Source of the DNA: Candidatus Aenigmatarchaeota archaeon
Lineage (GTDB): Archaea > Aenigmatarchaeota > Aenigmatarchaeia > Aenigmatarchaeales > JACQIB01
DNA: 46,537 nt
Reading direction: 5' to 3'
NCBI GenBank assembly: GCA_046760225.1
Contig: JBHIDR010000003.1
Coordinates: 1 to 46,537, forward strand
The position numbers are program-made. Below, piece after piece: positions 18,001 to 21,000 of this stretch; position 1 is the first letter of the stretch; every line of letters begins with the position of its first letter.

Positions 18001-21000
18001 GTCTTTGTCAGCGGATGCATCAACCAGACCGCCATAAAGTCCCAGGAGGAAGCGTCCCAGGCTGTGCAGGATGTCAGCGAAGACATAGAAAAAGTTGGCT
18101 CGAGCCTTGAGGACGTTGAATCTGGTCTTGGTTGAGCAATAAAAACTTTAAATACTTTGTTTCTCATTCTATATGCACTCGGTAATGAGCTGTTATAGCA
18201 GCAAAACTGAGGAGGTGAATTGAATGGCTTTCAAGATAGTGATAAATGAACCCAAGACAAGGAAGAGCTATCAGATAGAAAAGGACGCTCCTTCTTTAAT
18301 CGGACTGAAGATTGGTGACAAGTTCGATGGCTCGATAGTTGGTCTCAGCGGCTTTACCCTGCAGGTCACTGGAGGAAGTGACAAGGACGGGTTCCCAATG
18401 AGGACTGACATGGAAGGAAGCGGAAGGAAGAAAATCCTGCTTTCTGATGGGCCTGGATATGTGCCAAGGAAAAGGGGCGTGAGGAAAAGGAAGTATGTAA
18501 GGGGGAACAAGATATCTGATAACAACGCACAGGTAAATGTTAAGATTGTTGAAGGTGAAGGCGATGTTGCAGCGATTCTTGGTATAAAGAAGCCAGAGGA
18601 AAAGAAGGAAGAGGCGCCCGCGGAAAAGGAGGAGGAGGCGCCACCCGAAGAGAAGAAAGAGGAAGCGCCCAAAAAAGAGGAAAAGCCCGCGGCGCGGACT
18701 CCGTCCGCTGCGCCGTCGCAGCCGGCCGAGGAGAAGAAGGAAGAAGAGAAAGAAAAATGAGGCTGATATCAATGAGGGATACATGGATAAGCGAAGATAA
18801 AGTGTTTGTAGATATAGTCATAACAGATCTGGGAGCAAGAAGACTCGTTTACAATCGCAGAACTGAACAGTACGAATATGAAAAACTCTATCAAGGATGG
18901 TAGTAATTAAAGCTGTGCGGGGAAGTAGAGATAGTAAGCGGTCACGTTGAAGTCCTCTACGAAGCCGCTGCGCAGGATCGAGCTGAACTTCTTTGCGCCG
19001 GCCTCGAACCTTTCATGCGCGTCGTCTATCTCGGAGCGGAAGTTCTCTGCGGTCGGGACCTTGTATCCGGACGTCTCTTCTATGTAAAGCAGGGCGGTCG
19101 TCTTGTCTGGGTAAGGAATCATAAATACCGCGTGCTTGGTCTCGCCCTCATAAAAGACTGCCCAGTCACTTCTTGCAACAATGTTGTTTTTTGCAAGTAT
19201 CGCTTCCAGAACAGGCGTCGTGGTGACGAAGAAAAGCTTCGGAGGTGTTAATATGTGTCTGTGTAAAAGTTGTGTGAACATGAAAAGAAGTCAAATCATA
19301 GCGGACTTTGAGGCGGAAATAATGGAAGACTGGCTTGGGGGTGATGGTATGAGAGTTCAAAGGCAGAAAGAACTCAATCTTTTTAAATACCTCGCCCGCT
19401 ATATTGAAATAGGGAGTGAAATATGACCAAAAAAATCGACCCAAGGCTTATTCCCGAGGTCAACATAGGTACGGTTGGACACTGAGCAACTTGCGGGTTG
19501 CTTGGCTAAAAACGTGGACCACGGGAAATGCGTTGCATTAGATGAAGATATGTTTATTAATAATAAGCTAATTTCAGGACAGGAATTAATGGACTTAGCA
19601 AAATCTAAAGGGAATATTGTTTTTTCAAAGAAAAATGAATGGCTATACAACATTCCAAATCTTTATACTTATAGTCTTGATTCTGAATTACAAACTGTCA
19701 GAACGAAAGCACAAGTATTTATACAGAAATATGAAGGGCCCATTCTTAAAATGATTACAAAAAATGGTAAAAGTATAAAGGCAACTAAAGAACATCCTTT
19801 GCTAATAAATGAAGGCGGTAATTTAAAATGGAAAAAAATGAAAGAGATTAAAGTTGGGGATTATATTGCTGTTTCGAATTTGGGTACATTCCCTAGTAAA
19901 ATAAAACTTAAAAATAGTTATCTCAAGGAACTAAGAAAAAGGTATCCATTAGTTATGACAAATATTGATTATAACAAACTTAAAGAAAAGACGGGAAACT
20001 TCGTTAATTTCTCTATGTTAAATGAAAAGGAATTTAGTACTTTGCGTATTTTGGGTAATTTTTCTTTAAGAGAAATAGCAAAGGCGACAAATTTTTCTTA
20101 TTCATGGATTCAGAAGGCCCTAGGCCAAAAAAGGAAAACTACAAATAATGTTAAATTAGAACTATCAAAGTTTTTCAAAAGTAATAAACATAGAATAGTA
20201 AGACTTTCTAAAAACGAAATATTGGTTGGTTATAAATCTCGCCATTCTGGAAAAAATTATACTAAATTCAAAAACATAAAGATTATAGATCAGGATATAG
20301 TAAAATGGTTTGCTTTCTTGCACGCAGAAGGAAATACTCATTATAAAAGAATAGTAGTTGTTCAGAAAAATTATCCCGAATTATTAGAAGAGTTTGAAAA
20401 GATATCTAAAAGCATATTTGGAATTGAATCTAAAATCGCATTCGGAAATAATGATGTTAAAAGATGTGAATTATATTCAAAACCGTTTATTGAATATATA
20501 TGTTTAAGGTTTGGACTTAAGATTGGGGCATCAAAGAAATCGCCTATTTGTAACTGGATACTTTCTCTGCCACCAAACCTTCAAGCTTTATTTCTAAAAT
20601 ATTTTTTTGCTTTAGAGTGTGATGTAAGAAAAAATTCAATAAAAATAACTCAAATTAATAAAAGAAATATAAATATTATCTCTACTATCTTGCACAATTT
20701 TGGAATAGAACATCACCTAAAAGAGGGTGTAAGAAAGAATCGTAATATAGAATATAGTTTACGCATAGAAGGAAAGCACAACCTTAGAAGATTTATAGAA
20801 AAAATAGGTATTTATGATAAAAACAAATCGAGAAGAGTTAAAGCGTACCTAAAAACAATTAAGCCTACAAACCCACCATCATACTCACTTGTTCCGATAA
20901 ATCCGAACATCTTGATGGAACTTTCACAAATTTTACCTAATTTCACTCTTAAAGAAAACTATTACTATTATGCGAATGGAAAGATAACCAAAATTAGATT

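What a model noticed while it worked through the whole genome (the two positions that open the first line are those of the whole stretch)
18176..18226. Conserved structured RNA leader of ribosomal protein eS6 that folds over its Shine-Dalgarno site
The 5' UTR of the eS6 gene holds a 45-nt motif (CYCGG paired with CUGRG, an internal loop with RUGWG opposite AAAA, and a variable inner stem) whose 3' strand overlaps the SD. It is a candidate autoregulatory r-leader for eS6.
Evidence so far: Motif between TATA box and start codon in 22 of 30 order loci. On 19 aligned rows (3 long-loop rows left out) the outer helix is 93.7% paired with 5 double-sided changes at one pair; covariation score 0.166 versus 0.106 in shuffles, 0 of 500 reach it, slid controls lower. 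The inner stem varies with compensation by eye. No Rfam hit at gathering score.
(Added by a program. Inside this text positions count along the whole contig: contig position 1 is position 1 of the stretch shown here. "Call 12" and the like, gene names such as g00115 and contig names such as C1 are that model's own, and its searches are not shown. The text may have been shortened before it was handed on; [...] marks where a part breaks off. The agent that wrote the report below was given it as the finding of a first reader that could run no searches.)

Follow-up and report, generated by a model that had tools for sequence, protein, structure and literature searches.

The report
Ribosomal-RNA mimic before archaeal eS6 gene
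A small RNA hairpin at the very start of the messenger for ribosomal protein eS6, kept across many tiny uncultured archaea, copies a helix of the ribosome's own RNA that eS6 touches, so spare eS6 probably binds it and turns down its own production; binding has not been tested.

Summary
The element is real, but smaller and more widespread than first described. Its core is a 5-bp helix, CYCGG/CUGRG (window 18178-18182 with 18207-18211), with an invariant G·U pair. It starts at the inferred transcription start of the eS6 gene in 110 of 181 Aenigmatarchaeota-class loci, in 21 of 36 families. Three of five pairs show compensatory changes. The loop varies from 4 to 84 nt; the RUGWG/AAAA loop is mostly order-specific (25 of 31 versus 4 of 79). 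The helix overlaps the Shine-Dalgarno by only 0-3 nt (1 nt here).

New here: the helix matches the stem of 16S rRNA helix h8, including which pairs may vary, and h8 ranks first among 746 conserved 16S windows. Yeast eS6 contacts h8 (PMC12825303). In one family the helix lies far upstream and a downstream strand competes with it (18 of 23), like a two-state switch.

Best reading: an eS6 autoregulatory r-leader that mimics h8 (about 0.68). No Rfam family or paper describing it was found. Binding, regulation and transcription are untested.

The parts
18141..18154 (+). A-rich BRE-like run and TATA box (TTTAAATA at 18147-18154) of the eS6 promoter
   Evidence: a TATA-like box lies 30-32 nt before the helix in 44 of the 71 loci where the strict pattern found one (39 of 110 had none)
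18176..18177 (+). Inferred transcription start; the helix begins at about +2 or +3
   Evidence: Inference: TATA-to-ATG distances in the own genome peak at 29-30 nt, read as leaderless genes. No RNA data.
18178..18182 (+). 5' arm of the conserved helix (CUCGG), identical to the 5' strand of the own 16S h8 stem
18183..18188 (+). 5' strand of the internal loop (UAAUGA; RUG at loop positions 3-5), order-type
   Evidence: RUG in 30 of 31 order loci, 11 of 79 others
18189..18202 (+). Variable inner stem-loop (GCUGU / UAUA / GCAGC)
   Evidence: first pair canonical in 28 of 29 rows, second in 24 of 29, with C-G, G-C and U-A alternatives
18203..18206 (+). A-rich 3' strand of the internal loop; its last two letters (RA in 86 of 110 loci) take the place of the 3' half of the h8 GAAA loop
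18207..18211 (+). 3' arm of the conserved helix (CUGAG), carrying the U of the invariant G·U pair; identical to the 3' strand of the own h8 stem
18211..18218 (+). Shine-Dalgarno GGAGGUGA; only its first base is in the helix
   Evidence: the own 16S 3' end GGATCACCTCC is
18224..18760 (+). Ribosomal protein eS6 gene (178 aa, acidic C-terminal tail); proposed ligand and regulated gene
   Evidence: Pfam PF01092 E 3.9e-36; PDB eS6 chains
19423..22522 (+). aIF2-gamma gene with intein; usually directly after eS6 in relatives, here separated by about 660 nt containing an opposite-strand ORF

Best explanation
This is an autoregulatory ribosomal leader for eS6 that works by rRNA mimicry. Shown by sequence comparison: the mRNA begins with a 5-bp helix that reproduces the stem of 16S rRNA helix h8 (C-G, Y-R, C-G, G·U, G-C), with a free loop in place of the GAAA tetraloop. 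Inferred: when eS6 is in excess over 16S rRNA, free eS6 binds and stabilises this helix. In most lineages, including this window, the helix ends 4-16 nt before the start codon, so the bound hairpin blocks 30S loading sterically and buries 0-3 nt of the SD. In family f10 the helix lies far upstream and is normally taken apart by a downstream complementary strand; binding would flip the leader into the other fold, which in part of the cases closes the SD. The result is feedback repression of eS6, and of aIF2-gamma where it is coupled. The RUG/AAA internal loop of this order may add a second contact resembling the tandem G·A region of h44 (weak).
For: Position and specificity. Covariation: 3 of 5 pairs change on both sides, score 0.224 versus 0.115, 0 of 500 shuffles, slid controls lower (74 rows); the two sides of pair 2 change 10 and 9 times on a 181-row eS6 tree. 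h8 in 37 16S genes (36 with both arms): pair 1 C-G 36 of 36; pair 2 C-G 19, U-A 16, G-C 1; pair 3 C-G 23, U·G 13; pair 4 G·U 36 of 36; pair 5 G-C 25, C-G 9, A-U 2. Leader in 110 loci: pair 1 C-G 108; pair 2 C-G 81, U-A 27, U·G 2; pair 3 C-G 107, U·G 3; pair 4 G·U 110; pair 5 G-C 108, C-G 1, G·U 1. h8 scores highest (7.7 bits, next 6.3) of 746 conserved 5-bp complementary windows read in both orientations in 20 16S genes; no strict match is shared by three 23S genes. One leader is an exact h8 copy with a GNRA loop (L148). Yeast eS6 interacts with h6, h8, h10, h13 and ES3B (PMC12825303 passage); in an archaeal 30S, ABCE1 hinge 2 touches h8 and eS6 side by side (PMC7196836 passages). The leader persists without aIF2-gamma downstream in L019, L029, L037, L276 and L384, L400. 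Competing fold in f10: 18 of 23 loci exceed all or all but one of 30 spacer shuffles; helix probability below 0.2 in 20 of 23 versus a shuffle mean of 0.49.
Against: No binding, reporter or transcript data. The G·U at pair 4 was part of the calling rule, so its invariance is partly built in (the 3'-half count also assumes it). A 5-bp helix holds little information, and h21 gives a looser match in 7 of 10 16S genes. That eS6 reads the h8 stem pairs themselves is recalled, not shown by any search; the S. solfataricus paper names h6, h10 and h44, not h8, around eS6 (PMC11698992 passages). Leader and same-genome h8 agree at pair 2 in 24 of 29 genomes (nominal p 0.0002), but only 2 independent pairs stand on supported branches, so this is not significant; pairs 3 and 5 do not track h8 (11 of 29 and 10 of 29 differ). 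In the near-SD forms the helix is predicted to form without any ligand (probability above 0.5 in 75 of 87), and for this window SD accessibility hardly depends on it (0.83 versus 0.80). In f10, forcing the helix lowers SD accessibility by more than 0.15 in only 7 of 23 loci (raises it in 0). 71 of 181 loci lack the element.
Confidence: 0.68

Rival explanations
1. The helix is a regulatory protein-binding site, but the ligand is another translation factor: aIF2-gamma (usually the second gene of the operon, and known to bind 5'-triphosphate ends) or an h8-contacting factor such as ABCE1.
For: aIF2-gamma follows eS6 on the same strand in 61 of 66 leader-bearing loci with at least 600 nt of downstream flank. 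The helix sits at the 5' end, where S. solfataricus aIF2-gamma binds (PMC3936769, start of abstract). ABCE1 binds the h8-h14 junction (PMC7196836 passages).
Against: aIF2-gamma also follows eS6 in 42 of 56 loci without the leader, and the leader is kept where aIF2-gamma is not downstream. By position, the h8 residues ABCE1 touches (G137, A138, A139) fall at the tetraloop (inference from numbering), which the leader does not keep. The model found no second copy before another gene in 42 genomes.
Confidence: 0.14
2. A ligand-free structural element: a 5'-terminal hairpin that shields the mRNA from 5'-to-3' exonucleases or sets a fixed translation rate; the likeness to h8 is chance.
For: The helix starts within a few bases of the inferred 5' end, is predicted to form unaided in 75 of 87 loci, and tolerates loops of 4 to 84 nt.
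Against: A stabiliser needs pairing, not sequence, yet 107-110 of 110 loci keep the same pair at four of five positions, including a weak G·U. It is confined to eS6. In f10 the helix is actively competed away, which makes sense only if something can rescue it.
Confidence: 0.1
3. A DNA operator: an imperfect inverted repeat at the transcription start bound by a dimeric repressor.
For: Fixed distance from the TATA box and two conserved half-sites.
Against: The half-site spacing runs from 4 to 84 bp; the invariant G·U and the U·G variants pair only as RNA on the sense strand (the reverse strand folds worse); the inserts fold as hairpins (23 of 64 beat 95% of shuffles).
Confidence: 0.04
4. An L7Ae-binding k-turn, as in the archaeal l7ae leader.
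For: In this window the loop reads UAAUGA opposite AAAA next to a G-C rich stem, superficially like a box C; k-turn leaders near the SD are known in archaea (PMC6298567 passages).
Against: Tandem G·A/A·G pairs need GA on both strands; a GA...GA loop pattern was met in only 2 of 110 loci, both too short or unlike this one (L142, L236). Most order loci have GUG rather than GA.
Confidence: 0.02

Closest known systems
Ribosomal leaders (r-leaders) that mimic rRNA, e.g. the archaeal S15-Halobacteria, S15-Methanomicrobia, eL15-Euryarchaeota and L4-Archaeoglobi candidates (Eckert and Weinberg 2020, PMC7247131; abstract, passages and a supplement term search seen)
   Same: Conserved, covarying structure in the 5' UTR of a ribosomal protein gene, next to the SD, resembling the protein's rRNA site; lineage-restricted.
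   Different: Different ligand: eS6 or S6e occurs 0 times in that paper's text and supplements. No Rfam match. The conserved core is only a 5-bp helix with a free loop, and it is used with two different downstream arrangements.
Archaeal l7ae 5' UTR k-turn leader (PMC6298567, passages seen)
   Same: Archaeal ribosomal protein proposed to repress its own translation through a stem-loop very close to the SD.
   Different: No tandem G·A k-turn. The l7ae leader is unfolded without protein, whereas this helix is predicted to form unaided in the near-SD forms.
16S rRNA helix h8 stem (the proposed template)
   Same: Same five pairs, same invariant G·U, same alternatives at pairs 2, 3 and 5.
   Different: The GAAA tetraloop is replaced by a 4-84 nt loop or stem-loop; the sixth, outer pair and the lower h8 are absent.
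Long 5' UTR of Pyrococcus abyssi rps6e (PMC3849170; passages and one supplement row seen)
   Same: A long leader on the eS6 gene, suggested to be cis-regulatory.

Membership tests
r-leader (class) | Lies in the 5' UTR of a ribosomal protein gene, consistently | tested here: met
   110 of 181 class eS6 loci; 27 of 34 model matches in 42 genomes are eS6 leaders and the other 7 overlap reading frames. UTR status is inferred from the TATA box.
r-leader (class) | Conserved secondary structure with covariation | tested here: met
   3 of 5 pairs change on both sides; non-circular count. Two of the three rest on one row each.
r-leader (class) | Resembles the ligand's rRNA binding site (optional feature) | tested here: met
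   h8 ranks first of 746 windows; substitution pattern matches; eS6-h8 contact from PMC12825303 (yeast). Base-level contacts not checked.
r-leader (class) | Binds the encoded ribosomal protein | not testable with these tools
   No protein-RNA folding or binding data available.
r-leader (class) | Binding represses expression | tested here: inconclusive
   Folding only: SD overlap 0-3 nt; SD access falls in 7 of 23 f10 loci and rises in 0.
Rfam archaeal r-leader families (S15, eL15, L4) and all other Rfam 15 families | Covariance-model match | tested here: not met
   0 matches at E up to 10 around the site; 3 weak unrelated matches below gathering in 20 loci.
k-turn / L7Ae site | 3-nt bulge followed by tandem G·A and A·G pairs | tested here: not met
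   Pattern met in 2 of 110 loci only, not in this window; definition from PMC6298567.
Bulge-helix-bulge intron or processing site | Two 3-nt bulges around a 4-bp helix with flanking helices | tested here: not met
   Read from the folds: 6x4 internal loop, no room for an outer helix 1-2 nt from the inferred 5' end, and 4-5 nt loops in some members.

The most novel reading that the evidence does not exclude
The first RNA aptamer for eS6, a protein shared only by archaea and eukaryotes: a minimal 5-bp h8 mimic that works as a portable sensor with two outputs (steric block beside the SD in most lineages, a two-state refolding switch in family f10), that tracks its host's h8 sequence, and that reaches beyond Aenigmatarchaeota (two metagenome loci whose eS6 cluster carries a 'Euryarchaeota archaeon' label), implying an old and wider archaeal circuit that also ties aIF2-gamma supply to small-subunit assembly.
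Probability: 0.4. Interest if true: 0.8.

Novelty: new member of a known kind. Interest (0 to 1): 0.66.

Why it matters
Very few cis-regulatory RNAs are known in archaea, and my searches found none for eS6 or for these small-genome DPANN archaea. If eS6 binds this helix, it is a new r-leader ligand and an unusually small case of rRNA mimicry. It would show that a free eS6 N-terminal domain can recognise the h8 stem alone, which is directly testable with a 20-35 nt RNA and bears on extra-ribosomal RNA binding by eS6. The same sensor with two different downstream arrangements in related families is a natural experiment in how an RNA switch is built around a fixed binding site. It would also show that genomes under 1 Mb keep post-transcriptional feedback on ribosome parts.

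Tried and rejected
- RNA evidence: no RNA holder was listed; this is not evidence either way, and read laying was not used.
- RNAalifold on 14 order rows gave no structure because MAFFT left the rows out of register. The inner-stem count on alignment A1 (28 of 31 order rows, 3 long loops left out) was also out of register (59.8% paired) and was redone by anchoring in a script.
- h44 as the main template: its YYYGG-U-GAG...C-GA-G-CCRRR loop resembles the order-type RUGAG/CAA loop, but that loop is absent from most families and most order loci have GUG. Kept only as a possible second contact.
- The longer identity between the own leader and own h8 (CAC before UCGG) is not shared by the same-genus genome; treated as chance.
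- Genome-by-genome tracking of h8 by the leader: nominally strong, not significant on the tree. GC content does not explain pair 2 (0.420 versus 0.427).
- Thermoproteota: not found at the leader position in 29 loci with a usable start; 4 of 33 had a mis-set start and were not assessable. These are 30 of the 60 matches plus 3 loci.
- A loose pairing rule fires on 87 of 1149 own-genome ORFs (strict version 17), so calls were curated by eye: 8 dropped and 3 re-registered, 6 added, 1 locus without an eS6 N-terminus dropped. L137 carries a GCCGG/CUGGC variant with a 2-nt gap and was left uncalled; the G-C at pair 1 in L235 has an ambiguous register.
- k-turn, DNA operator and BHB site rejected as above.
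- The sigma-70 scan does not cover archaeal promoters.
- No handle for a euryarchaeal genome group could be reached, so Thermococcales, methanogens and halophiles were not surveyed, apart from Methanothrix-like metagenome loci without the motif.
- Earlier-findings look-ups for this element returned nothing relevant.
- bioRxiv supplements were closed; an unpublished motif list there could hold this element.

Full report
Verdict. The element is real. Its conserved core is a 5-bp helix at the 5' end of the eS6 mRNA that matches the stem of 16S rRNA helix h8. The most likely function is feedback repression by eS6 (about 0.68). Binding and regulation are untested.

Setting. The window encodes aIF5B, two hypothetical proteins, eS6 (18224-18760; Pfam PF01092; PDB eS6 chains) and an intein-bearing aIF2-gamma. 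The genome is 0.85 Mb. The closest named relatives of its eS6 are titled Candidatus Aenigmatarchaeota or Nanoarchaeota archaeon, so I treat the class as Aenigmatarchaeota (inference).

Anatomy in the window. TATA box 18147-18154, CUCGG 18178-18182, loop strand UAAUGA, inner stem GCUGU/GCAGC 18189-18202, AAAA, CUGAG 18207-18211, SD 18211-18218, ATG 18224. The core folds at -12.0 kcal/mol with z -3.14; the reverse strand folds worse, and a 121-nt context shows no excess. TATA-to-ATG distances in this genome peak at 29-30 nt. Reading these as leaderless genes puts the start at 18176-18177, so the helix begins at about +2 (inference). Only one base of the SD lies in the helix.

Distribution. 40 of 42 order genomes gave an eS6 match and 31 of the 40 loci carry the helix. 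Of 301 class genomes searched, 272 had eS6. I examined 181 of these, not at random: top-scoring matches and families f10, f19, f23 and f24 are over-represented. 110 of 181 carry the helix, in 21 of 36 families, after the curation listed under Tried and rejected. Presence changes 22 times on a weak 135-column eS6 tree, and many loci without it have a TATA box too close to the start to hold one. In 80 metagenome loci the rule called 26, after dropping one nt upstream. Two of them (L384, L400) group outside the Aenigmatarchaeota rows without strong support, and their protein cluster is labelled 'Euryarchaeota archaeon' (also 'Deltaproteobacteria bacterium'). This is a lead, not a result. The motif was not found in 29 assessable Thermoproteota loci.

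What is conserved. Pairs over 110 loci: C-G 108; C-G 81, U-A 27, U·G 2; C-G 107, U·G 3; G·U 110; G-C 108. On 74 aligned rows (of 87 then called; long-loop and near-duplicate rows left out) three pairs change on both sides, score 0.224 versus 0.115, 0 of 500 shuffles, all slid controls lower. The rows were chosen by pairing, so the 100% paired figure is circular, and the changes at pairs 1 and 5 rest on one row each. Selecting on the 3' arm alone removes most of the circularity: 84 of 86 loci have the 5' word and its second letter follows the partner; in the own genome only eS6, of 25 ORFs with the 3' half among 1149, has the partner arm. The loop runs from 4 to 84 nt. RUGWG is found in 25 of 31 order loci and 4 of 79 others; UG near the 5' side of the loop is in 87 of 106 loops of 8 nt or more. 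The order-type inner stem keeps pairing through changes. A covariance model run over 42 whole genomes gave 34 matches at E up to 1: 27 are eS6 leaders (24 of them training rows) and 7 lie elsewhere. Six of the 7 are inside long reading frames; one overlaps the end of a short ORF 8 nt before another start.

The template. The own 16S gene reads CUCGG GAAA CUGAG at h8; naming the helix h8 rests on its position and on established rRNA structure. Across 37 16S genes h8 shows the leader's pattern: pairs 1 and 4 fixed, pair 2 C-G or U-A, pair 3 C-G or U·G, pair 5 G-C or C-G. Scored with the leader's pair profile, h8 is first of 746 conserved 5-bp complementary windows read both ways in 20 16S genes. 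h21 matches loosely in 7 of 10 genes, always with U·G at pair 3. Three 23S genes share no strict match. One leader is CCCGG GCAA CUGGG, an h8 with a GNRA loop. Yeast eS6 interacts with h6, h8, h10, h13 and ES3B (PMC12825303, passages). ABCE1 touches h8 and eS6 next to each other in an archaeal 30S (PMC7196836, passages). A S. solfataricus figure legend names h6, h10 and h44 around eS6 and not h8 (PMC11698992, passages); PMC9932298 (passages) added nothing on rRNA contacts. That eS6 reads the stem pairs themselves is my recollection and comes from no call. Leader and host h8 agree at pair 2 in 24 of 29 genomes, but only 2 independent pairs stand on supported branches, and pairs 3 and 5 do not track.

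Which gene. aIF2-gamma follows eS6 in 61 of 66 leader-bearing and 42 of 56 leader-free loci with at least 600 nt of flank. Of the 5 leader loci scored without it, one (L271) has an aIF2-gamma-like ORF after all; L019, L029, L037 and L276 do not. In L384 and L400 the next gene is on the other strand. The element therefore follows eS6.

How it could act. In 79 of the 87 loci the helix ends within 20 nt of the start. SD overlap is 0-3 nt and the helix is predicted to form unaided in 75 of 87, so repression there would be steric, by a protein-locked hairpin under the 30S footprint (inference). In 23 f10 loci the helix is 35-166 nt upstream. There a downstream strand pairs with the 5' arm and loop: the free fold beats the helix-containing fold by more than 29 or 30 of 30 spacer shuffles in 18 loci, and the helix probability is below 0.2 in 20 (shuffle mean 0.49). 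Forcing the helix lowers SD accessibility by more than 0.15 in 7, raises it in none and leaves 16 little changed. These loci are one family, so they are not independent, though their spacers differ widely. A kept competitor strand argues that a ligand rescues the helix; the output is clear only in part of the cases.

Comparison with what is known. It works like an rRNA-mimicking r-leader. It meets the position, covariation and mimicry features; binding and repression could not be tested. It is not a member of any Rfam 15 family and not a k-turn (definition from PMC6298567, passages). The 2020 r-leader survey lists no eS6 motif (PMC7247131: abstract, passages, supplement term search). A long rps6e 5' UTR was noted in P. 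abyssi without a structure (PMC3849170, passages and one supplement row). Five paper searches found no description; the library lacks most subscription papers and bioRxiv supplements were closed.

Scores. Real conserved RNA element about 0.97; eS6-binding h8 mimic that represses translation 0.68; other protein ligand 0.14; ligand-free hairpin 0.10; DNA operator 0.04; k-turn 0.02. Novelty: new member of a known kind, with a new ligand. Interest 0.66.

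Noticed in passing
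window:14525-14546 (aIF5B) and window:19483-19513 (aIF2-gamma), approximate ends: Both GTPase genes are interrupted in the P-loop, between GH and VDHGK, by short frame-breaking hairpin inserts (22 and 31 nt) that fold like bulge-helix-bulge micro-introns. Similar 19-33 nt inserts at this site occur in 10 of 93 matched loci of several families (83 intact, 35 not matched). True starts are therefore near 14486 and 19423.
   Followed up: partly
G000:C1:40500-46870 (minus strand): The own 16S rRNA gene is spread over about 6.4 kb by many short and several long ORF-bearing insertions. In two relatives an insertion falls within the h8 hairpin itself.
   Followed up: no
L384:395-425 and L400:1160-1190 (approximate): Two metagenome loci with the full helix, TATA spacing and RUG loop sit on an eS6 that groups outside Aenigmatarchaeota and carries a 'Euryarchaeota archaeon' label; the gene is followed by a convergent membrane protein gene.
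   Followed up: partly
L137 and L235, upstream of eS6: One genus carries repeated GCCGG-RA-CYGGC units and, in L137, a tandem duplication inside a long 5' region; the pairing register is unclear.
   Followed up: no
L247, L277, L279, L280, L281, L291 (family f10): A second conserved hairpin (CCUUUUCUU...AAGAAAAGGG) covers the SD region whether or not the core helix forms; it may be the real output element of the f10 switch.
   Followed up: no
L033 versus L346: Two loci with 96% identical eS6 differ in the leader: L346 has the whole helix, L033 only the 3' arm, which suggests recent loss by deletion.
   Followed up: no
window:11381-12730: Two adjacent ORFs made of homing-endonuclease-associated repeats (PF18780).
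   Followed up: no
window:26862-26935: Weak Rfam tRNA match (31 bits) missed by ARAGORN, possibly an intron-split tRNA.
   Followed up: no
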